Assembly: GCA_039917665.1 (NCBI GenBank)
Contig: JBDSJB010000104.1
Coordinates: 1 to 62,884, forward strand
DNA from: Candidatus Binatia bacterium
GTDB lineage: Bacteria; Desulfobacterota; Binatia; UTPRO1
Direction: 5' to 3'
DNA: 62,884 nucleotides
In this document: positions 6,641-41,419 of the stretch, piece after piece
Numbering within the stretch: the stretch's first letter is position 1
Layout: every line of letters begins with the position of its first letter
Translations under genes and position numbers: made by a program
Notes under the pieces: model-generated
The model's input: only the letters and a program-made list of their open reading frames with translations
Told to the model about the DNA's origin: nothing
Databases searched by the model: none

Positions 6641-6762
6641 GGCAGCGGATTGCCACTTTTGCGGCGGCGTGCGGAGCGCTTATGCCCCCAAGACAGCGTG
6701 TACACGGGCGGGCGCCGTGGCATTCGTCTTGCTCCCTCTGCTGGTCTGGAGGGCATGCACAC

Positions 6763-7011
6763 GTGGATAGACTCGCACCCGTCATTCGCGATCTTCGAAG
6801 CCGTCTCGGCCTCACGCAAGAAGAATTCGCTCACGCACTCGGCATCACGGTCAGCACCGTGAACCGTTGGGAAAAGGGCCATTCGGTCCCCAGCAAGTTG
6901 GCACGCGCGTCGCTGGCGCGCTTTGCCGGGCGCCGCGGCGTCGCGGTGGAAAGCCTTCTCGAAGATGCATCGTCGGACGGCATGGCGCCGCGTTCGAGCT
7001 CGGTCAACTAA
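6763..7011 (+). CDS. XRE/Cro-type helix-turn-helix transcriptional regulator
   Basis: IRDLRSRLGLTQEEFAHALGITVSTVNRWEKGHSVP is a classic HTH_3 pattern. Start placed at GTG 6763 (GGAGGG 9 nt upstream). The first 42 codons of track ORF 6637..7011 look non-coding. Confidence 0.55.
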   Translation: MDRLAPVIRDLRSRLGLTQEEFAHALGITVSTVNRWEKGHSVPSKLARASLARFAGRRGVAVESLLEDASSDGMAPRSSSVN

Positions 7012-10400: not shown

Positions 10401-10416
10401 AGCAATGCGCATGCCA
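10401..10416 (-). promoter_or_regulatory. candidate sigma54 (-24/-12) promoter upstream of the 7159..10224 gene
   Basis: The minus strand reads TGGCAT-GCGCA-TTGCT, against consensus TGGCAC-N5-TTGCW. It sits in a relatively AT-rich intergenic region about 175 nt upstream of ATG 10224. Confidence 0.45.
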
Positions 10417-27556: not shown

Positions 27557-28030
27557 ATGATGGAGAGCCAGGCCGGCGAGCGAGCGACGCTCGACATGAT
27601 GACCGAATCGGAACCGCGTCGCATTCCTGTGCGCGACAGCCTGAGCGACCTGCTCGGCCCAGACGTGATCCTGCCGCAACAGTTCTTCGAGGGGCCCCGG
27701 TGCGACAGCGACTTCTCCCCGGAGAAGGCTCTCATGCTCGCCATCCTGGAGGATGCGATCCGCTGCTTCCAGGAGTACTTCCGAACTACACGCGCTCGGC
27801 CGCGCATGCTGTCCCGACAGGCGGAGCGCTGGATCCGCACGCGTGACTGGAACTGGCCCTTCTCGTTCAACAACGTCTGCGAAGCACTCGGCATCGATTC
27901 GGACTGTATGCGAGATGCCTTGCTCCGAATGAAGTACGAGCACTTGATGACGCAGGAGCGCCCGCGGACCTACACGCGCCCGGCGCGCATCGTTCGCCTG
28001 AATGCGCGGGCCAAAGGCGGGAAACGCTAA
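27557..28030 (+). CDS. small uncharacterised protein, paralog A of the 40003..40332 product
   Basis: AAGGAG lies 7 nt upstream of the ATG. Residues 56-125 align ungapped with residues 14-83 of the 40003..40332 protein (30/70 identical by hand). No family recognised. Confidence 0.7.
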   Translation: MMESQAGERATLDMMTESEPRRIPVRDSLSDLLGPDVILPQQFFEGPRCDSDFSPEKALMLAILEDAIRCFQEYFRTTRARPRMLSRQAERWIRTRDWNWPFSFNNVCEALGIDSDCMRDALLRMKYEHLMTQERPRTYTRPARIVRLNARAKGGKR

Positions 28031-28305
28031 CTCGGGTTAATCGTCTTCTTGAGAACCTGACTCGCCTTGAAGGTGAGTACTTTGCGACCGGTAATGATGA
28101 TCTCTTCGCCGGTTTGCGGATTGCGTCCCTTGCGGGGTCGCTTTTGATTCACGACGAAATTTCCGAAGCCTGAGATCTTCACCTTGTCGCCGTTTTCGAG
28201 GCGACTCTTGATCACCTCGAAGATCGACTCGACGACCTCGGAGGCTTCCTTCTTGGAGAACCCGACCTTCTCGTAGATGCGCTCGACGATGTCCGCCTTG
28301 GTCAT
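28027..28305 (-). CDS. ihfA: integration host factor alpha subunit
   Basis: MTKADIVERIYEKVGFSKKEA..ISGFGNFVVNQKRPRKGRNPQTGEEIIITGRKVLTFKAS. Conserved position after pheT. An alternative start, ATG 28344, overlaps the pheT stop. Confidence 0.8.
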   Translation of the reverse strand: MTKADIVERIYEKVGFSKKEASEVVESIFEVIKSRLENGDKVKISGFGNFVVNQKRPRKGRNPQTGEEIIITGRKVLTFKASQVLKKTINPS

Positions 28306-28340
28306 CGTTGCGCCCTTGATCACCGTAGGCGTGCCATCGT

Positions 28341-30749
28341 TCACCGCCGCACCTCCAAAGGTAGTTCCCGGACAAGTCGTGCGACCAGTTGCTCGTGCAT
28401 GGCGTTGACCTCGTCGTCCGTGAGCGTTCGGTTGGGAGCTCGATATGCGATTGTATAGGCGAGGCTCTTCTTCCCAGACGGAATGGGAGACCCGGTGTAC
28501 TGGTCGAACACTCTGACATCCTCCACCAAAGGCTCGGCAACCTCCTCGACCGCATCGATCACTCGCTGCGCCGGAAATTCGTCGTCGACAACGACCGCGA
28601 TGTCCCTGGAGACGGCCGGAAAGCGCGGAAGTGGGCGAAAAATAACGCGGCGTGGACAGTACTGAACGACCCTCATCAAGTCAAGTTCAGCCACCCAGGG
28701 CTCCGCGTCGAGGTGCCGCTCGGCGATTGCGTTGGGATGTAGTGCACCCACGTAGCCACACGCCACCCCCCCGATCTCGATGCGTGCCGACTTGCCGGGA
28801 TGAAGATAGCCGGCCTCGGTACCCACTCGCTCCCAACGGACGCGATCGAGGTGGAGTTCGGCAAACATCAACCCGAGGACACCCTTCAGGTCGGCGAAAT
28901 CCACGGCACGCCGCGCCTCCCCCATCGTCGTCGCGGGCGGGCTGCCAGCAACCAACAGTGCGAGGGTCTGCAACTCTTGGTACCGATCGTCCTCGCGCGC
29001 GAATACGCGGCCAATCGTGAACCCTGCGACGTGCTCGGCCCCCTGGCGTCGATTTTCGCTGAACGCTCGCAGCATCCCGGGGAGGAGGCTCCTCCGCAGC
29101 TCAGCGGCGTCCACCGACAGCGGGTTGGCGAGCGTCACGGCGCGGCCGGTGAGCTCAGGCAATCCAGGAAAATCACGGTTGTCCTCGGCGGAGACCATGG
29201 CCAGCGTGACCATCTCGTCGAATCCGCCGCTCCGCAGGCGCTCGCGCAGTCGTTGCTCGACGTCTCGCGTCGGCCCCATGCCCGGTCCACCAGCGACGAT
29301 CGAGGGAACCGTGGCGGGTACGCGATCGTAACCGATCAGGCGCGCAACCTCCTCGACGAGATCCACCTCGTTTTGAATGTCGAAACGATGCGACGGTGGG
29401 ACGACTCGCCACGACGCCGATCCCTTGCCCGACACGACCGCTCCGAGCGCTTTCAGGGGACGCTCCATCTCGGTTGCTTTAAAGGTCGTCCCGAGGAGCG
29501 CATTGACCCGAGCTGGCCGCAGCCGGATCGCTGGCCGCGCCCGCCGGCCGGGTGCCCGCTGCTCGAGAACTCCACGCGCGATCTCCCCACCCGAGTGCGC
29601 AACGACCAACTCAGTCACGCGGTCGAGCGCGGTTCTCGTTCCCCCAGGGTCGACACCGCGCTCGAATCGATAGGAGGATTCTGTGTTCACTCCTAATCGG
29701 CGAGCCGTACGGCGAACGGTTTCGGGGACGAAGAACGCGCTCTCGAGCAGAATGTCCACGGTTTCGGCTCGAATCTCCGAGTCGGCCCCCCCGATCACCC
29801 CGGCCAGCGCAACCGGCCCTTCCGCATCCGCGATCACCAAGTCGTCAGGCAACAGCTCTCGCGTGACACCGTCGAGGGTTTCGTAGCGCTGACGGTTTCC
29901 TGCTCGACGCGCCGTGATGCGAGCACCTCGGATGCGGGCGAGGTCGAATGCATGCAGTGGTTGGCCGCGCTCGAGCATGACGTAGTTGGTTGCATCGACC
30001 ACGTTGTTGATGGGCCGAAGCCCGACCATCCCGAGTCGGGTTTGCATCCACAGCGGCGATGGGGCGATGCGTAGACCACGCACGACGCGGCCGCAGTAGC
30101 GCGAACAGAGGTCGGGAGCCTGCACTTCGATGCTGACGATCCGCGCGGCGGCGGCCTTACCCTCGACGATCTTCACCGCTGGAACGCGAAGCGTCGCGCC
30201 CGTCAACGCAGCGACCTCACGTGCCACTCCCAGCACGCTCAGGCAATCGCCGCGGTTGGGCGTAACGGAGAGCTCGAGAATGGTGTCCTCCGCGGAAAGA
30301 TACGACACCAACGACACGCCGATCTCCGCGTCGCGCGGAAGGATCATGATCCCGCCGCCATCCTCGTCCGACAACGCCAACTCGCGTGCCGAGCACAACA
30401 TACCGTGCGACGACTGACCGCGGATCGTCGCCTGCTCGATGTGCTTGCCATCCGGAAGTACCGTTCCAGGCACAGCCAGCGCGACGAGGTCGCCCGCCTG
30501 CATGTTGCTGGCGCCACACACGACGGCGACGCTTTCGTGGGCGCGTTTCACCTGGCAGAGCCGCAAGCGATCGGCATTCGGGTGTGGTTGAACGCTCTCG
30601 ATTCTCGCGATCTCGACGCTGCCCCAACTCGGACGACGCTCGTCGACAGATTCGACCTCGAGCCCGGCCATCACCAACGTGTCGGCCAGCTCGTCGGGCG
30701 ACAGCACGACATCGACGAGCTCGCGCAGCCAATTCAGGGTGATCTTCAC
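28341..30749 (-). CDS. pheT: phenylalanine--tRNA ligase beta subunit
   Basis: 802 aa starting MKITLNWLRELV. tRNA-binding, B3/B4, B5 and FDX-ACB regions are recognisable. Follows pheS. Confidence 0.95.
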   Translation of the reverse strand: MKITLNWLRELVDVVLSPDELADTLVMAGLEVESVDERRPSWGSVEIARIESVQPHPNADRLRLCQVKRAHESVAVVCGASNMQAGDLVALAVPGTVLPDGKHIEQATIRGQSSHGMLCSARELALSDEDGGGIMILPRDAEIGVSLVSYLSAEDTILELSVTPNRGDCLSVLGVAREVAALTGATLRVPAVKIVEGKAAAARIVSIEVQAPDLCSRYCGRVVRGLRIAPSPLWMQTRLGMVGLRPINNVVDATNYVMLERGQPLHAFDLARIRGARITARRAGNRQRYETLDGVTRELLPDDLVIADAEGPVALAGVIGGADSEIRAETVDILLESAFFVPETVRRTARRLGVNTESSYRFERGVDPGGTRTALDRVTELVVAHSGGEIARGVLEQRAPGRRARPAIRLRPARVNALLGTTFKATEMERPLKALGAVVSGKGSASWRVVPPSHRFDIQNEVDLVEEVARLIGYDRVPATVPSIVAGGPGMGPTRDVEQRLRERLRSGGFDEMVTLAMVSAEDNRDFPGLPELTGRAVTLANPLSVDAAELRRSLLPGMLRAFSENRRQGAEHVAGFTIGRVFAREDDRYQELQTLALLVAGSPPATTMGEARRAVDFADLKGVLGLMFAELHLDRVRWERVGTEAGYLHPGKSARIEIGGVACGYVGALHPNAIAERHLDAEPWVAELDLMRVVQYCPRRVIFRPLPRFPAVSRDIAVVVDDEFPAQRVIDAVEEVAEPLVEDVRVFDQYTGSPIPSGKKSLAYTIAYRAPNRTLTDDEVNAMHEQLVARLVRELPLEVRR

Positions 30750-36441: not shown

Positions 36442-36518
36442 AGCCCCGACGTGCCGACCCGGCGATCCTCCGTCGCGGGCCGACGAGCCCTGCTTACCGG
36501 CCCCACCTTCGGGCTGTT

Positions 36519-38105
36519 ATGATCGCCGGGATGCGCATCGTCCCGTGGCGTTCCCTGCGCCTGCGCCTGATCGTCTTACTCGTGCTCTCCGTCGTCTGCG
36601 TCCTCGCCGCAGCGACGGCGCTCGAGATTCGCCTCTCCACGCGCCTCGCTGAGCGCAATCTCCAGGAACGCGCGCTCACGCTGGCGAAGGAGATCGATAT
36701 CCTCCTCGGCTCGCTGTGGGGCCGCACCGACCTGCGCAATTTTCACCATCGCTTGGCCGAGCTCGCCCGAACGCACCGCAACGTCGCCGACATCGAGATC
36801 CTCCTACCGGTTCGCGATCAATGGCGCCTGCTCGGGAGCTCGGGCCGCGCCGCGCCGACCGAGCCCATCGCGCTCGATCGTTTGGCGATGGAGCTCGATC
36901 AACCGATCTGGCAACTGCTGCCCGGAAGCTCGCATTTGGGTCTCGCCGTCGCGCCATTCCACCTCGGGCAACGGGTGATCGGGGCCATCCGCGTGAAAGC
37001 CTCCTTGTCCGAGGTCGAACGCCTCGCCAACGTCCAGGCCCAGCGCGCGTTGCTGCTGGCACTCTTCTCCGTCCTCGGTATCGCCGGCGTGCTCGGCGTC
37101 ATTCTCACGCGGACGATCGCCCGCCCGGTCGGATTGCTCGTCGACGCCATGAACGCCGCTCGGGCCGGCCACCTTGATACGCGCGTCCAGCTCCGCGGCA
37201 GCGACGAGCTCCAGCAACTCGGCGACCACTTCAACAGCATGCTCGAAACGATCGCACGGGCCGATCACGAGAAGCGCGAGTTGGTGGATCGCTTGAGCCG
37301 CTTCAACGACGAGCTCGAAAGCAGGGTCGCTGGCGCCACCGCGGACATCGCGGCCAAGAATCTCGAACTGCAACGGATCAACGAACAGCTCTGGCACGTG
37401 CAGAAACAACTCGGTCGCGCTGAACGATTGGCCGCCCTCGGTCAGATGACGGCCGCGATCGCGCACGAGCTCGGGACGCCACTCAACTCGGTGCTCGGCT
37501 ATACGCAATTGCTCGCCAAGGAAGTCACGACGCCCGACGGGCGTGAGAAGCTCGCGATCATCGAGTCCCAGGTTCGGGTCATGAGCCAAGCGATCCGCAA
37601 CGCGCTGGATCAGACACGCACGCCCAGCCTCGAGCGACGGCCAGTCGCCGTCGCGGGATTGATCGAGGAGACGCTCGCGCTTCTGGCCCCGGCGCTCAGC
37701 GCCAAGGGGATCGGCGTCGAACGCCAACTGGACGCCGCCCCAGCCGTCATCGCCGCGGATCCGCGCGGCTTGCAGCAAATCCTGCTGAACGTGCTCACCA
37801 ACGCCGTCGACGCGCTGGATCCGGGCGGACACATACGCGTCCGCGCCGACGTGCATCAGCCGAACGGCGGTCCTCCCGGCCTGCGTATGCGCATCACCGA
37901 CGACGGGAAGGGCATCGCGCCCGGAGATTTGGAGCACATCTTTCAGCCCTTCTTCACGACCAAGGAGATCGGCCGCGGTACGGGCCTCGGGCTGACGATC
38001 ACCCAGGACATCGCGCGCGCGCACGGTGGAACGGTCAAGGTCGAGAGTCGCCTCGGCGGCGGGACGACCATCGACATCACGATCGGCGGCGGAGCCAGCG
38101 CGTGA
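36519..38105 (+). CDS. sensor histidine kinase (TM-sensor-HAMP-HisKA-HATPase)
   Basis: N-terminal TM segment; second TM plus HAMP (ARPVGLLVDAMNAARAGHLD); H-box AAIAHELGTPLNSV; N, G1 and G2 boxes (LLNVLTNAVDA, DDGKGI, GTGLGL). Confidence 0.9.
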   Translation: MIAGMRIVPWRSLRLRLIVLLVLSVVCVLAAATALEIRLSTRLAERNLQERALTLAKEIDILLGSLWGRTDLRNFHHRLAELARTHRNVADIEILLPVRDQWRLLGSSGRAAPTEPIALDRLAMELDQPIWQLLPGSSHLGLAVAPFHLGQRVIGAIRVKASLSEVERLANVQAQRALLLALFSVLGIAGVLGVILTRTIARPVGLLVDAMNAARAGHLDTRVQLRGSDELQQLGDHFNSMLETIARADHEKRELVDRLSRFNDELESRVAGATADIAAKNLELQRINEQLWHVQKQLGRAERLAALGQMTAAIAHELGTPLNSVLGYTQLLAKEVTTPDGREKLAIIESQVRVMSQAIRNALDQTRTPSLERRPVAVAGLIEETLALLAPALSAKGIGVERQLDAAPAVIAADPRGLQQILLNVLTNAVDALDPGGHIRVRADVHQPNGGPPGLRMRITDDGKGIAPGDLEHIFQPFFTTKEIGRGTGLGLTITQDIARAHGGTVKVESRLGGGTTIDITIGGGASA

Positions 38106-39439
38106 CGCCGAACCTCCTGGTCATCGACGACGACGCCGTCACCCGCGAGCTTCTGACTGAGGTCTTGCAAGACGAGGGGTACACCGTCGAGGCATGCGAA
38201 AGCGGAAAGCTCGCGTTGGAGCGCGCCGCGCACGATACCTTCGATCTCGCCATCACCGACGTCCGGATGCCCGAGATGGATGGCATCGCCGTCACGCAGG
38301 CCCTGAAAGCGCAGCAACCTGCGCTGCAGGTCATCGTGATGACGGCGTTCGGCTCGGTCGAGACCGCGGTCGAGGCCATTCGGCATGGCGCCTTCGATTA
38401 CGTCAGCAAGCCGATGAACCTGGACGAGATCAAATCGACGGTACGACGCGCGCTGGCGGAACGGCATCTGACGGACGCTCCCTTCGAAGGGGGAACCCCG
38501 ATCAGCGACACGAGTGTCGTCATCGGCCGCAGTCCCGCCATGGTCGAGGTGTACCGCACCCTCGCGCGCGTCGCGCCGTCACGCAGCACCGTACTGATCG
38601 AAGGCGAGAGTGGAACTGGCAAGGAGCTCATCGCGGCGGCACTGCACCGCCACAGCGACCGTGCCGGTGGACGCTTCGTCGCCGTCGATTGCGGATCGCT
38701 CACGGATTCCCTGCTCGAGTCCGAGCTCTTCGGCTATGTCCGCGGCGCCTTCACCGGTGCGGTCGGCGAGAAGAAAGGTCTCTTCGAAGAAGCGACCGGC
38801 GGAACGATCTTTCTCGACGAGATCGGCGACATCGGGTCATCGATGCAAGCCAAGTTGCTGCGCGTGCTCCAAGAGTACGAAATCAAGCGCGTCGGCGGGC
38901 ACGAGTGGATCCCCGTCGACGTTCGCGTCGTCGCCGCGACCAATCGCCACCTCGAACACCTCGTCGAGAAGGGTACCTTTCGCGAGGATCTTTTCTATCG
39001 CCTGAAGGTCGTCATCATCACCTTGCCCCCGCTCCGTGATCGACGGGAGGACATTCCCCTCCTGGCCGAGTACTTCGTGCGCCGTTATGCCGCGCGGAGC
39101 GGCAAGGCCATCGCGCGGGTGACGCCCGAGGCCATGCAGCTCCTCACCGACCAAACCTGGCCCGGTAACATTCGAGAGCTTGAGCACTCCATCGAGCGCG
39201 CCGTGGCCTTGGCGAATGGCCAGGTGCTCACGCCCGACGATCTCGCTCCAGAGCTCAAGGGCAGCGTCGACTCGGCGCTCTTCCGCGGCGCCCCGACGCT
39301 CGAGGAGGTCAAGCGCCGCTACCTAGCGCACGTGCTGCAGGAGACCGGCGGCAACATCTCGCGCGCGGCTAGCATTCTCGGCGTCGAACGACGGTCGCTG
39401 CAGCGGATGCTCCGCCGGTACGGCTTGCGAGAGTCCTGA
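38102..39439 (+). CDS. sigma54-dependent response regulator (NtrC family bEBP)
   Basis: GTG start overlaps the HK stop (GTGA). Receiver LLVIDDD..DLAITDVRMPEMDG; AAA+ GESGTGKE; GAFTGA loop; C-terminal Fis-type HTH GNISRAASILGVERRSLQRMLR. Confidence 0.93.
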   Translation: MTPNLLVIDDDAVTRELLTEVLQDEGYTVEACESGKLALERAAHDTFDLAITDVRMPEMDGIAVTQALKAQQPALQVIVMTAFGSVETAVEAIRHGAFDYVSKPMNLDEIKSTVRRALAERHLTDAPFEGGTPISDTSVVIGRSPAMVEVYRTLARVAPSRSTVLIEGESGTGKELIAAALHRHSDRAGGRFVAVDCGSLTDSLLESELFGYVRGAFTGAVGEKKGLFEEATGGTIFLDEIGDIGSSMQAKLLRVLQEYEIKRVGGHEWIPVDVRVVAATNRHLEHLVEKGTFREDLFYRLKVVIITLPPLRDRREDIPLLAEYFVRRYAARSGKAIARVTPEAMQLLTDQTWPGNIRELEHSIERAVALANGQVLTPDDLAPELKGSVDSALFRGAPTLEEVKRRYLAHVLQETGGNISRAASILGVERRSLQRMLRRYGLRES

Positions 39440-39596
39440 GGCTTTCTGCCCCGCTGCCTGCGTCATTCGACCGCAGCGACCCAAATGGCTGATTTCATTT
39501 TGGTTTAGACACGGCGCGTTGGCTGCCTGCGACCTTTGATCCGGGAAGCCTCCATCATGACCGGGCCAAGTCATCGTTTTTATTCATCACGCGCGC

Positions 39597-39612
39597 TGGC
39601 ACCATGGTTGCT
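39597..39612 (+). promoter_or_regulatory. sigma54 promoter, perfect consensus
   Basis: TGGCAC-CATGG-TTGCT against consensus TGGCAC-N5-TTGCW. It lies in the 39440..39627 intergenic region immediately downstream of the bEBP gene. Confidence 0.6.
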
Positions 39613-39627
39613 CATGCATCAGTCACG

Positions 39628-39996
39628 ATGCGCATTCTGGTCATCGACGACGATGCAACATTCAGCCGCTACCTCGCCGAGGTGCTCACGCATCTCGGCC
39701 ACGATGCGGAGTCGGTGACCGACGGGCTCGTCGGCTTCGAACGCTGCCTCCGTGACCCGTACGACGTCGTGATCTGCGACGTGCGCATGCCGCTGATTCT
39801 CGGCACCGAGTTGGTGTCCGAGCTGCGGCGAGATCTGCCCGAGCTGCCCGTAGTGCTGATCTCGGCCTTCGCCGACGAGCAGCTGGAAGCGCAGGCACAT
39901 GAACGCGGGGCCTGGCTCCTGTCCAAGCCCTTCGATGCTGCGGTGTTGGGAGAAGTGCTGCAACGAGCGACCGGGCCGCAGCCCCTCGCTTCATAA
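39628..39996 (+). CDS. single-domain response regulator (CheY-like receiver)
   Basis: MRILVIDDDATF..DVVICDVRMP..VVLISAF..LSKPF. ATG 39628 is preferred over track ATG 39604, which lies inside the sigma54 promoter. Confidence 0.85.
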   Translation: MRILVIDDDATFSRYLAEVLTHLGHDAESVTDGLVGFERCLRDPYDVVICDVRMPLILGTELVSELRRDLPELPVVLISAFADEQLEAQAHERGAWLLSKPFDAAVLGEVLQRATGPQPLAS

Positions 39997-40002
39997 GGAG
40001 AC

Positions 40003-40332
40003 ATGATGACGAACGAACCTGCAACGATCCCTCTCGAGCGCGAGAGACGCCTCGTGCTCGCGATTCTCGAGGAAGCAGTTCGCAGCTACCAACGGTACGC
40101 CTTCGCCACCAACCGCCGCGGACGCCGCCTGTTCGGCGAGACCTGTGAATGGTTCGACGCGAAGGACGATCCCTGGATTTTCTCATTCGAGAACATCTGT
40201 CACGCACTGGATCTCGATCCCGACCACATCCGTGAGGGCCTCGCCCGTTGGCGCCGCGATCAAGCCCCGCGCCGTCCACTCGTCACCGTTCCCGTCGCGC
40301 CGGGCTACCGCCTGCGCCGCGCGGCCGGTTGA
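40003..40332 (+). CDS. small uncharacterised protein, paralog B of the 27557..28030 product
   Basis: Starts 6 nt after the receiver gene. LVLAILEEAVRSYQRY..W..DPWIFSFENICHALDLDPDHIREGLARW shares the core with paralog A. Confidence 0.7.
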   Translation: MMTNEPATIPLERERRLVLAILEEAVRSYQRYAFATNRRGRRLFGETCEWFDAKDDPWIFSFENICHALDLDPDHIREGLARWRRDQAPRRPLVTVPVAPGYRLRRAAG

Positions 40333-40348
40333 GCGGGAGCACCTTTAG

Positions 40349-40410
40349 CGCGCACTTAGGGGAGTGCGCGTGCGTCGGCGGCTGGCATGAATTGCCGCCG
40401 CCGACGCTTT
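40349..40410 (+). terminator. two consecutive GC-rich hairpins after paralog B
   Basis: Hairpin 1: CGCGCACT-TAGGGG-AGTGCGCG (40349-40370). Hairpin 2: GCGTCGGCGGC-14 nt-GCCGCCGACGC (40372-40407), followed by TTT. Confidence 0.5.
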
Positions 40411-40426
40411 CCGCCTAGAATGCCCC

Positions 40427-41419
40427 ATGGCTGAAGCGAAGCGCCGCGCCAAGCGTGCGGTACCCCCACGCAACGTGAACACTCTGCTGATAGAGGAGGC
40501 GTTCGCGACCTGGCTTCCGCCGGCGGTCGGTGCCGTCATCCTCGGCGCCACCATGCTGCTCGACGCGCTTGGGCTGATTGCTGAACCGATCGCGGCCCTG
40601 AGCGCGGTCTTCGCGCTCCTCATCCTCGGCATTTCGACCGCGCTCGGATCGTTACTGCGCGATGCTCATCCGCGGCTCGGCCCCGTTGCGCTCGCGGGTG
40701 TGGCTCTGGCGTGGATCATCGTGTTCGCCCTGCCCTTCAGCCTAAGACTTTTCCCCGGTCCGCCAGTCGCCACGACCTCACTCGAAGCGAAGCCCGCGAA
40801 TCCCGTGCTGCCGATCGGGGAAGGCCGGTTCGATCTCGTTCTGGATGCTCACCTCCCCCCCGCGACCGAGCACCAGACGCGCCAGCTGCACTATGCGCTG
40901 ACGCTGACCGATGGCGCTGGCCAATCGCAGCACTACGACGGGGAGCTCGGCGATCAATGGCAAACGCGACGCCTTGGGCGCCGCGGAACCGCACCCGTGC
41001 ACCTCGAGCATCTCTCCGCGACGCATGAGGTGGACTATCCCGCTGGTGGGACCGTGCGCCTCGACGACGTCGCGGTCTCCGGCATTCCCGAAGCTTCGGT
41101 CGCCGCGTCCTTCTACCATCGCCGCGTCCCTGGGTTGCTGTGGCTACTCGGGGGCGGGATCCTGCTCGGCATCGCTGCTCTCACCTTCGACCTGTGGTGG
41201 GACCCGCAACGCACGCCGACCGCAGCACTCCTGACGGCGACAGCCACGGGAGCCGTCGTCGTCTTCTGCAGCTCGGCCGCAGGCCATCCCGGGCTCCGAC
41301 AGGTATTCGGTTCGACCATCGTCGGCGGCATCGCCGGTGTCCCGACGATCGGCATCGTCGCATGGTTGGTGCGACGCTTCCCGGCACTCCGCCGCATCGC
41401 GCCCGGGCGCGCGACCTGA
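40427..41419 (+). CDS. integral membrane protein with central extracytoplasmic domain, unknown function
   Basis: 330 aa. N-terminal and C-terminal hydrophobic helices flank a soluble region of about 120 aa. No family recognised. Confidence 0.55.
   Translation: MAEAKRRAKRAVPPRNVNTLLIEEAFATWLPPAVGAVILGATMLLDALGLIAEPIAALSAVFALLILGISTALGSLLRDAHPRLGPVALAGVALAWIIVFALPFSLRLFPGPPVATTSLEAKPANPVLPIGEGRFDLVLDAHLPPATEHQTRQLHYALTLTDGAGQSQHYDGELGDQWQTRRLGRRGTAPVHLEHLSATHEVDYPAGGTVRLDDVAVSGIPEASVAASFYHRRVPGLLWLLGGGILLGIAALTFDLWWDPQRTPTAALLTATATGAVVVFCSSAAGHPGLRQVFGSTIVGGIAGVPTIGIVAWLVRRFPALRRIAPGRAT

What the first reader, a model, noticed from the sequence alone, without database searches (positions are those of the whole stretch)
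39453..39628. Perfect sigma54 promoter directly after the bEBP gene, with upstream direct repeats and an IHF-like site, implying a near-leaderless receiver mRNA
Seen: TGGCAC-CATGG-TTGCT at 39597-39612 matches TGGCAC-N5-TTGCW exactly. A 10-nt direct repeat GCTGCCTGCG occurs at 39453-39462 and 39522-39531, about 145 and 75 bp upstream. Between the repeats, the minus strand at 39482-39494 reads AATCAGCCATTTG, which fits the IHF consensus WATCARNNNNTTR. An AT-rich tract follows. Inference: the NtrC-type regulator encoded at 38102..39439 (and IHF; ihfA is in this window) probably activates the receiver plus small-protein operon. A start about 12 nt after the -12 GC would fall near 39623. That is only about 5 nt before ATG 39628, which has no SD, so the transcript would be leaderless or nearly so. 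The track start ATG 39604 lies inside the promoter.
Basis: partly seen in the sequence, partly recalled or inferred. Interest (0 to 1): 0.6.

Follow-up and report, generated by a model that had tools for sequence, protein, structure and literature searches.

The report
Sigma-54 promoter abutting a start codon
In an uncultured Binatia bacterium, a conserved activator-dependent (sigma-54) promoter ends only 15 bases before the start codon of a small signalling gene, so its mRNA should have almost no leader and no ribosome-binding site. This layout recurs across the genome and in some related families, and I found no paper describing it.

Summary
TGGCACCATGGTTGCT (39597-39612) is the only exact TGGCAC-N5-TTGCW in the window. 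TGGCAY-N5-TTGCW is kept in all 16 orthologous Binatia loci while the flanks diverge.

The genome has rpoN, about 25 enhancer-binding proteins, and IHF alpha and beta. The conserved start of the receiver (MRILVIDDD, ATG 39628) lies 10-17 nt after the -12 box in every ortholog. Seven orthologs have no other in-frame start. There is no Shine-Dalgarno sequence, whereas the second gene has AAGGAG. A 0-7 nt leader is therefore the best reading; ATG 39604 is a miscall inside the promoter.

The 10-nt direct repeat is specific to this lineage. The conserved units are 17-bp dyad-like sites (TGAGGC-N5-GCCYC, TGCGTC-N5-GNCGCA, TGCGAC-N5). The IHF-like site is kept in position in 10 of 16 loci, but such sites are not enriched at other sigma-54 promoters.

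About a third of the sigma-54 sites in the genome abut a start codon, including two pilin genes. Sigma-70-like promoters do the same. The habit is confined to some Binatia families (f1, f10, f15).

No transcript data could be obtained, so the start point, the activator and IHF binding remain inferred.

The parts
36531..38105 (+). Sensor histidine kinase (HAMP-HisKA-HATPase_c), the likely partner of the activator. Its true start is probably ATG 36531 rather than ATG 36519.
   Evidence: Pfam. The sequence shows TATGAT at 36518-36523, 7 nt before ATG 36531.
38102..39439 (+). NtrC-type enhancer-binding protein (REC, sigma-54 interaction AAA+ domain with GAFTGA, Fis-type HTH). Its start overlaps the kinase stop.
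   Evidence: Pfam and NCBIfam. GAFTGA is visible in the translation. It lies upstream of the promoter in all 16 loci.
39437..39453 (.). Site A: conserved dyad-like 17-mer TGAGGC-TTTCT-GCCCCG overlapping the activator's stop codon. It is a candidate activator-binding site, about -178 from the predicted start.
   Evidence: Conserved block 39431-39455. A dyad of 5-6/6 matching arm positions is found at the same place in 11 of 15 orthologs.
39453..39462 (+). Only its 3' part (CTGCG) belongs to conserved site B.
39459..39475 (.). Site B: TGCGTC-ATTCG-ACCGCA, a dyad-like 17-mer and candidate activator-binding site, about -156.
   Evidence: Conserved block 39458-39478. It is a perfect TGCGTC-N5-GACGCA in L043 and 5/6 in L032, L034 and L036.
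39482..39494 (-). Distal IHF-like site AATCAGCCATTTG, centred about -135.
   Evidence: Exact consensus match. A <=1-mismatch site at -113 to -116 in 10 of 16 loci. Conserved block 39482-39499.
39522..39531 (+).
39528..39544 (.). Site C: TGCGAC-CTTTG-ATCCGG. The left half-site and spacer are conserved and the right half is degenerate. It is a candidate promoter-proximal activator site, about -87.
   Evidence: Conserved block 39528-39535; alignment.
39567..39579 (-). Proximal IHF-like site next to a T-rich tract. In this genome it is degenerate (AAACGATGACTTG, 2 mismatches). It is centred about -50.
   Evidence: A <=1-mismatch site at -30 from the -24 box in 5 of the 15 orthologs (L032, L033, L034, L043, L045). 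The AA and T-tract columns are conserved.
39597..39612 (+). Sigma-54 promoter, -24 TGGCAC and -12 TTGCT.
   Evidence: Conserved as TGGCAY-N5-TTGCW in 16 of 16 loci.
39613..39627 (+). Unconserved 15-nt stretch that holds the predicted start point (about 39621-39626) and no Shine-Dalgarno sequence.
   Evidence: Information content is near zero. Its length is 10-17 nt in the orthologs. The start position is inferred from the canonical sigma-54 geometry.
39628..39996 (+). Stand-alone receiver (CheY-like, 122 aa) with the acidic pocket DD, the phospho-acceptor Asp in VICDVRMP, and the SKPF Lys.
   Evidence: Pfam Response_reg covers residues 3-110. The conserved N-terminus MR(I/V)L(V/I)IDDD is seen.
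39995..40000 (+). Shine-Dalgarno sequence AAGGAG for the second gene.
   Evidence: Sequence.
40003..40332 (+). Small protein (109 aa) with no Pfam or NCBIfam match, from a family with many copies per genome.
   Evidence: There are 12 copies in this genome and 1-18 per genome in all 61 Binatia genomes searched.
40347..40409 (+). Two GC-rich hairpins followed by TTT, the probable end of the operon.
   Evidence: Read from the sequence. They do not meet the T-run criterion of the terminator scan.

Best explanation
This is a functional, enhancer-dependent sigma-54 promoter. It drives a two-gene operon: a stand-alone receiver and a small uncharacterised protein.

Proposed sequence of events:
1. The kinase and the NtrC-type activator encoded just upstream sense an unknown signal.
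2. The phosphorylated activator assembles on conserved 17-bp dyad-like sites about 90-180 bp upstream. A conserved IHF-like site (or sites) possibly helps by bending the DNA.
3. The activator uses ATP to open the sigma-54 holoenzyme complex at TGGCAC-N5-TTGCT.
4. Transcription begins about 11-14 nt after the -12 box, around 39621-39626, which is 2-7 nt before ATG 39628.
5. The receiver is therefore translated from a leaderless or near-leaderless 5' end without a Shine-Dalgarno sequence. The second gene uses an ordinary AAGGAG site.

The receiver, which resembles the activator's own receiver domain, may act as a phosphate sink that feeds back on the kinase.

Shown: the motif, its conservation, the fixed start codon, the lack of a Shine-Dalgarno sequence, and the presence of the machinery.
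Inferred: the exact start point, which activator acts, IHF binding, and the feedback role.
For: - Motif: exact at 39597-39612. Genome-wide there are 22 exact sites against about 3.4 expected.
- Conservation: TGGCAY-N5-TTGCW is kept in 16 of 16 orthologous loci from several genera, while the 10-17 nt after it and most of the spacer are not.
- Start codon: 10-17 nt after the -12 box in all 16 loci. Seven have no in-frame alternative start, and L037 has a stop 3 nt upstream. Response_reg begins at residue 3.
- Translation signals: no Shine-Dalgarno sequence before 39628, but AAGGAG before 40003. The first 61 nt of the predicted mRNA fold less well than shuffles (z +1.65).
- Machinery: rpoN, about 25 activators, an adjacent activator with GAFTGA and HTH_8, and IHF alpha and beta above the NCBIfam cut-offs.
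- Same geometry elsewhere in the genome: 14 of 41 TGGCAY-N5-TTGCW sites have a start codon 9-16 nt downstream. These include two type IV pilins whose N-methylation motif starts at residues 1-4. With <=1 mismatch the count is 46 of 154, against 5-24% (mostly 7-12%) for permuted or mis-spaced motifs.
- Sigma-70-like promoters also peak 6-9 nt before start codons (30 of 149 against 5 of 123 for the control).
- In the window's own family of Binatia genomes, ATG counts at 0-8, 9-17 and 18-26 nt after the motif are 30, 146 and 78.
Against: - No 5' end has been mapped.
- With the canonical start point the leader here is about 5 nt, and up to 7 nt in close relatives. In E. coli, extra 5' nucleotides weaken leaderless translation (Krishnan 2010, listed in the references shown).
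- No terminator separates the activator gene from the promoter, so read-through transcripts may also carry the receiver gene.
- The genome has about 25 activators, and the dyad motif identifies no further targets, so the link to the adjacent activator rests on synteny alone.
- IHF-consensus sites are not enriched at the other 38 sigma-54 promoters (1 found against 0.75 expected).
- The perfect IHF-like site lies between putative activator sites rather than between them and the promoter.
Confidence: 0.75

Rival explanations
1. The promoter is real and gives the near-leaderless transcript, but it is switched on by another of the roughly 25 enhancer-binding proteins rather than by the one encoded next to it. 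The conserved upstream blocks would then bind that other regulator or an unrelated factor.
For: There are about 25 Sigma54_activat genes in the genome. Nothing ties the dyad-like sites to this activator's HTH. A genome scan with the dyad finds no regulon.
Against: The order kinase, activator, promoter, receiver, small gene is kept in all 16 loci, with the conserved sites starting at the activator's stop codon. Two-component sigma-54 activators commonly control adjacent operons (general knowledge).
Confidence: 0.15
2. The receiver is made mainly from a longer read-through transcript of the kinase-activator operon, by internal initiation without a Shine-Dalgarno sequence. The sigma-54 promoter would contribute little, or only under rare conditions.
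For: There is no terminator-like site between 39439 and 39597. The intergenic RNA has no exceptional fold (z -1.0).
Against: This does not explain the strict conservation of the -24/-12 element, or of its 10-17 nt distance to the start codon, in 16 of 16 loci. Internal starts in this genome do use Shine-Dalgarno sequences, for example AAGGAG at 39995.
Confidence: 0.07
3. The motif is a chance match, or a relic with no function. The receiver would start at ATG 39604, as automatic gene calls have it.
For: A public gene call uses ATG 39604. One exact match in 63 kb is not impossible by chance.
Against: ATG 39604 is absent from the orthologs, and the residues it would add are not conserved. The motif is kept in 16 of 16 loci while its neighbours diverge. 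The motif is about 6-fold enriched in the genome and is positioned before genes.
Confidence: 0.03

Closest known systems
NtrB-NtrC / glnAp2 and AtoS-AtoC type two-component sigma-54 control (E. coli)
   Same: The same parts are present: a histidine kinase, a REC-AAA+(GAFTGA)-HTH_8 activator, upstream dyad-like sites of 6-N5-6 geometry about 90-180 bp from a TGGCAC-N5-TTGC promoter, and rpoN. The best NCBIfam matches are AtoC, NtrC, ZraR and AtoS.
   Different: All equivalog scores are below the cut-offs, so this is not an ortholog of any named system. The target is a stand-alone receiver plus an unknown small protein. The promoter ends 15 nt before the start codon, whereas, to my knowledge, the E. 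coli examples have leaders of tens of nucleotides with Shine-Dalgarno sites.
IHF-assisted sigma-54 promoters (K. pneumoniae nifH, P. putida Pu, E. coli glnHp2)
   Same: There is a consensus WATCAR-N4-TTR site in the upstream region, it is conserved in position, and IHF alpha and beta genes are present.
   Different: The perfect site lies between putative activator sites (about -135), not between the activator sites and the promoter. The better-placed proximal site (about -50) is degenerate in this genome. There is no enrichment at other sigma-54 promoters.
[quoted passage not shown]
   Same: The promoter element directly abuts the ORF, there is no Shine-Dalgarno sequence, and the AUG is at or close to the 5' end. 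This genome shows the sigma-70-type version too.
   Different: Here the abutting promoter is the enhancer-dependent -24/-12 class. The searches for 'leaderless' with sigma54, sigma-54, RpoN or 'enhancer binding protein' returned no paper whose title or abstract treats this pairing; I opened only two of them.
PilS-PilR / sigma-54 control of pilA (Pseudomonas, Myxococcus, Geobacter)
   Same: Two pilin genes in this genome sit behind TGGCAY-N5-TTGCT.
   Different: Their ATG lies 12-13 nt after the -12 box, which is the same leaderless geometry as at the receiver gene.

Membership tests
Sigma-54 (-24/-12) enhancer-dependent promoter | GG and GC doublets exactly 10 nt apart within TGGCAC-N5-TTGCW | tested here: met
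   Exact match at 39597-39612.
Sigma-54 (-24/-12) enhancer-dependent promoter | The organism encodes sigma-54 and enhancer-binding proteins with GAFTGA | tested here: met
   rpoN at C528; about 25 Sigma54_activat genes; the adjacent activator has GAFTGA.
Sigma-54 (-24/-12) enhancer-dependent promoter | The element is under selection and sits before a gene | tested here: met
   Kept in 16 of 16 orthologs with diverged flanks.
Sigma-54 (-24/-12) enhancer-dependent promoter | Upstream activator sequences are bound by the cognate activator | tested here: inconclusive
   Conserved dyad-like blocks A, B and C exist, but binding was not tested and no further genomic targets were found.
Sigma-54 (-24/-12) enhancer-dependent promoter | Transcription depends on rpoN and starts about 12 nt after the -12 GC | not testable with these tools
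Leaderless / near-leaderless mRNA | The primary 5' end lies within about 0-5 nt of the start codon | not testable with these tools
   Inferred from the geometry only: the start codon is 10-17 nt after the -12 box in 16 loci.
Leaderless / near-leaderless mRNA | No Shine-Dalgarno sequence, and no room for one, before a securely placed start codon | tested here: met
   The 15 nt CATGCATCAGTCACG hold no GGAG-like tract. The start is fixed by conservation and by in-frame stops. Response_reg begins at residue 3.
Leaderless / near-leaderless mRNA | The organism uses the leaderless layout more widely | tested here: met
   Distance peaks for sigma-54 and sigma-70-like motifs; pilins with ATG 12-13 nt after the -12 box.
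IHF-assisted sigma-54 promoter | IHF alpha and beta are encoded | tested here: met
   NF001401 scores 134.4 bits against a cut-off of 111; NF001222 scores 117.4 against 115.
IHF-assisted sigma-54 promoter | A consensus IHF site lies between the activator sites and the promoter | tested here: inconclusive
   The exact site at 39482-39494 is conserved in 10 of 16 loci but lies between sites B and C. The proximal site at -30 from the -24 box is good in 5 orthologs and poor here.
IHF-assisted sigma-54 promoter | IHF sites recur at the organism's other sigma-54 promoters | tested here: not met
   1 hit in 39 promoters against 0.75 expected.
AtoSC / NtrBC / ZraSR orthologs | The score reaches the NCBIfam equivalog cut-off | tested here: not met
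   AtoC 479.8 against 714; NtrC 453.9 against 558.6; ZraR 442.7 against 760; AtoS 198.8 against 646.

The most novel reading that the evidence does not exclude
In some Binatia families (f1, f10 and f15 of the 19 sampled), sigma-54 holoenzyme routinely launches mRNAs that begin at, or within a few bases of, the start codon. An all-or-none, activator-gated promoter class would then be coupled directly to translation initiation that needs no Shine-Dalgarno sequence. This would be a distinct expression mode for pilins, flagellar, nitrogen and signalling genes. Unchecked notes from this scan suggest it also exists in Polyangia, Acidobacteriota and Verrucomicrobiota, and I found no experimental description of it.
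Probability: 0.55. Interest if true: 0.6.

Novelty: new variant of a known kind. Interest (0 to 1): 0.45.

Why it matters
Sigma-54 promoters and leaderless mRNAs are each textbook subjects, but I found no description of them combined as a regular design.

If the predicted 5' ends are real, three things follow:
- Automatic gene callers systematically misplace start codons at such loci. Here they put ATG 39604 inside the promoter and ATG 36519 inside a -10 box.
- Sigma-54 regulons in uncultured soil phyla could be predicted more sharply by requiring the motif-to-ATG distance.
- The start site of sigma-54 holoenzyme, and the tolerance of ribosomes for 0-7 nt leaders, become testable with a naturally conserved series of spacings (10-17 nt).

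For this locus it also defines a compact circuit: kinase, then activator, then a receiver decoy plus a small protein. That circuit gives the large uncharacterised small-protein family a regulatory context.

Tried and rejected
- Exact-protein look-up for transcript-derived contigs: the 122-aa product is not on record. The 130-aa miscalled product is on one 4.2-kb DNA contig only.
- ATG 39604 as the start: rejected, because it is not conserved and lies in the promoter spacer.
- Sites A and B as an RNA terminator or structure: the fold is unexceptional (z -1.0), no T-run follows, the terminator scan found none, and conservation is of sequence rather than of pairing.
- Genome scan with the dyads TGCGTC-N5-GACGCA and TGAGGC-N5-GCCTCA to find a regulon: only scattered GC-rich hits turned up, none was checked for a nearby sigma-54 site, and the locus's own sites fall outside the <=1-mismatch net.
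- Dyad symmetry alone is not significant, since by my rough estimate about 1.6 dyads with 5 of 6 matching arm positions are expected per 200 nt. Only the positional conservation counts.
- IHF-site enrichment at other sigma-54 promoters: none.
- Literature searches for 'leaderless' with sigma54, sigma-54, RpoN, 'enhancer binding protein' or Binatia: by title and abstract, no listed paper treats the pairing; I opened only two.

Full report
**What is there.**
The window is contig C104 of a 5.28-Mb, 68% GC metagenome-assembled genome. The record titles of its closest relatives name Candidatus Binatia or 'Deltaproteobacteria' MAGs. Around the finding the genes are:
- a HAMP-HisKA-HATPase histidine kinase (to 38105);
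- an overlapping NtrC-type activator (38102-39439; REC, Sigma54_activat with GAFTGA, HTH_8);
- a 188-nt intergenic region;
- a stand-alone receiver (39628-39996);
- a 109-aa protein with no family match (40003-40332).

All equivalog scores for the kinase and the activator are below the cut-offs, so the pair is not AtoSC, NtrBC or ZraSR.

**Checking the observation.**
- TGGCACCATGGTTGCT sits at 39597-39612 and is the only exact TGGCAC-N5-TTGCW in the window.
- The genome has 22 exact copies against about 3.4 expected from composition.
- The genome has rpoN and about 25 enhancer-binding proteins.
- The decamer GCTGCCTGCG is present twice, at the stated coordinates.
- The IHF-like 13-mer is present on the minus strand at 39482-39494. 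Taken alone it is not unusual, since 25 of 100 shuffles gave a match.

**Comparative evidence for the promoter and the start codon.**
Fifteen orthologous loci from several genera of the family (L032-L046) keep the order activator, spacer, receiver, small gene. TGGCAY-N5-TTGCW is present in all of them at the same place. The sequence just after it and most of the spacer have diverged; per-column information content falls to about zero between 39613 and 39624 and rises again at the ATG.

The conserved N-terminus MR(I/V)L(V/I)IDDD begins with ATG (GTG in two loci) 10-17 nt after the W of the -12 box in all 16 loci. Seven loci have no in-frame start codon further upstream, and L037 has an in-frame stop 3 nt before the ATG. 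The Pfam receiver model begins at residue 3.

No Shine-Dalgarno-like tract lies before 39628, whereas the second gene has AAGGAG 2 nt before ATG 40003 (5 nt before the in-frame ATG 40006). The first 61 nt of the predicted mRNA fold less well than shuffled versions (z +1.65).

With the usual sigma-54 geometry the start falls about 11-14 nt after the -12 box (own knowledge). The leader would then be about 2-7 nt here and 0-7 nt across the orthologs.

**Upstream elements.**
Phylogenetic footprinting gives five blocks in the spacer.
- Site A, 39437-39453: TGAGGC-N5-GCCYC, overlapping the activator's stop. It is a perfect TGAGGC-N5-GCCTCA dyad in four orthologs.
- Site B, 39459-39475: TGCGTC-N5-GNCGCA, perfect in L043.
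- The distal IHF-like site. It has <=1 mismatch at -113 to -116 in 10 of 16 loci, against a background of 7e-5 per position.
- Site C, 39528-39544: the conserved left half TGCGAC plus a YTTYG spacer.
- A proximal A/T-rich IHF-like site at -30 from the -24 box. It is good in five orthologs and has 2 mismatches here.

However, dyads of this quality are expected by chance, and only their fixed positions carry weight. A genome scan with them found no further targets.

IHF alpha (in the window, 28027-28344) and IHF beta (C50) pass the NCBIfam cut-offs. Even so, IHF-consensus sites are not enriched at the other sigma-54 promoters (1 against 0.75 expected). IHF binding therefore stays a hypothesis.

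No terminator lies between the activator gene and the promoter.

**The layout is a habit, not a one-off.**
Of 41 TGGCAY-N5-TTGCW sites in the genome, 14 have the first long-ORF start 9-16 nt downstream. These include:
- two type IV pilins whose N-methylation motif begins at residues 1-4, which fixes their ATG 12-13 nt after the -12 box;
- a FliK-like protein;
- a molybdopterin oxidoreductase;
- a YkuD transpeptidase;
- a thioredoxin.

With <=1 mismatch, 46 of 154 sites fall in the 9-17 nt bin, against 5-24% (mostly 7-12%) for permuted motifs or wrong spacers.

Sigma-70-like -35/-10 pairs also peak 6-9 nt before start codons (30 of 149 against 5 of 123). This locus shows two possible cases: TATGAT 7 nt before ATG 36531 of the kinase, and TAGAAT 5 nt before ATG 40427. 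The organism therefore seems to use leaderless mRNAs generally, and the sigma-54 cases are part of that.

Across 101 Binatia genomes I counted ATGs 0-8, 9-17 and 18-26 nt after the motif. The counts are:
- 30, 146 and 78 in the window's own family;
- 21, 98 and 48 in family f10;
- 3, 17 and 3 in f15;
- flat in most other families (for example 8, 20 and 25 in f7, and 13, 10 and 3 in f8).

Reversed-pattern controls gave about 0-1 per genome. The 18-26 bin is rich in short leaders that carry GGAGG.

**Mechanism proposed.**
The kinase phosphorylates the activator. The activator assembles on sites A, B and C, and a bend (IHF or intrinsic) brings it to the closed sigma-54 complex. ATP hydrolysis opens the complex and transcription starts a few bases before ATG 39628. 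Ribosomes load on the 5'-proximal AUG without a Shine-Dalgarno sequence, and the small gene is translated from AAGGAG. Two GC-rich hairpins (40347-40409) probably end the transcript.

The receiver has an intact acidic pocket, phospho-acceptor Asp and conserved Lys, and its best match is to NtrC-type receivers. A role as a phosphate sink or feedback element is a reasonable guess, but it was not tested.

**Comparison with what is known.**
The parts match the classical NtrC-type, IHF-assisted sigma-54 promoter. The difference is the direct abutment of the promoter on the start codon. Full-text searches combining 'leaderless' with sigma54, sigma-54, RpoN or 'enhancer binding protein' listed genome-wide TSS maps and one Myxococcus study. 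Of these I opened two:
- in the Myxococcus study, the leaderless gene is the sigma-A-driven pexR, not a sigma-54 target;
- the passages shown from the Sinorhizobium TSS map do not link leaderless mRNAs to sigma-54.

By title and abstract, none of the others treats sigma-54-dependent leaderless mRNAs as a class, and nothing was found on Binatia.

Notes from this scan report the same geometry in Polyangia, Acidobacteriota, Verrucomicrobiota and others. They are unchecked AI notes and I use them only as context. They mean that this locus is one more instance, in a new clade, of a recurring and apparently undescribed layout.

**Limits.**
- No transcript 5' end was seen.
- The organism is uncultured.
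- The activator-promoter link rests on synteny.
- IHF binding and the feedback role are inferences.

Noticed in passing
window 36494-36533: The kinase gene may itself be leaderless. TTACCG-18 nt-TATGAT ends 7 nt before ATG 36531 (MRIVPW...). The ORF-list start ATG 36519 lies inside the TATGAT.
   Followed up: partly
window 40392-40429: A sigma-70-like promoter, TTGCCG-18-TAGAAT, ends 5 nt before ATG 40427 of the 330-aa membrane protein, and it overlaps the 3' arm of the operon's second hairpin. This gives that gene a promoter of its own, again with leaderless geometry.
   Followed up: partly
window 6718-6733 (+), 6899-6914 (+), 10401-10416 (-): Three further sigma-54-like sites with one mismatch each. 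The one at 6718 lies about 29 nt before an ORF for a small XRE-type HTH protein.
   Followed up: no
window 40003-40332; own genome C44:3187-3423, C27:2926-3168, C359:212-448 and others: The small protein belongs to a family with 12 copies in this genome and 1-18 copies in each of the 61 Binatia genomes searched. It has no Pfam or NCBIfam match.
   Followed up: partly
own genome C500:23494 (+), C592 (- strand): Two type IV pilin genes have TGGCAY-N5-TTGCT 12-13 nt before their ATG. The prepilin N-methylation motif at residues 1-4 pins the start codon.
   Followed up: yes
Binatia class survey (G000-G107): The start-codon-abutting sigma-54 layout is lineage-specific. It is strong in families f1, f10 and f15, and absent or weak in f3, f7, f8, f9 and f12.
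   Followed up: yes
window 39437-39453 and orthologs: A strongly conserved TGAGGC-N5-GCCTCA dyad includes the activator gene's own stop codon. A regulatory site therefore overlaps the end of the coding sequence.
   Followed up: partly
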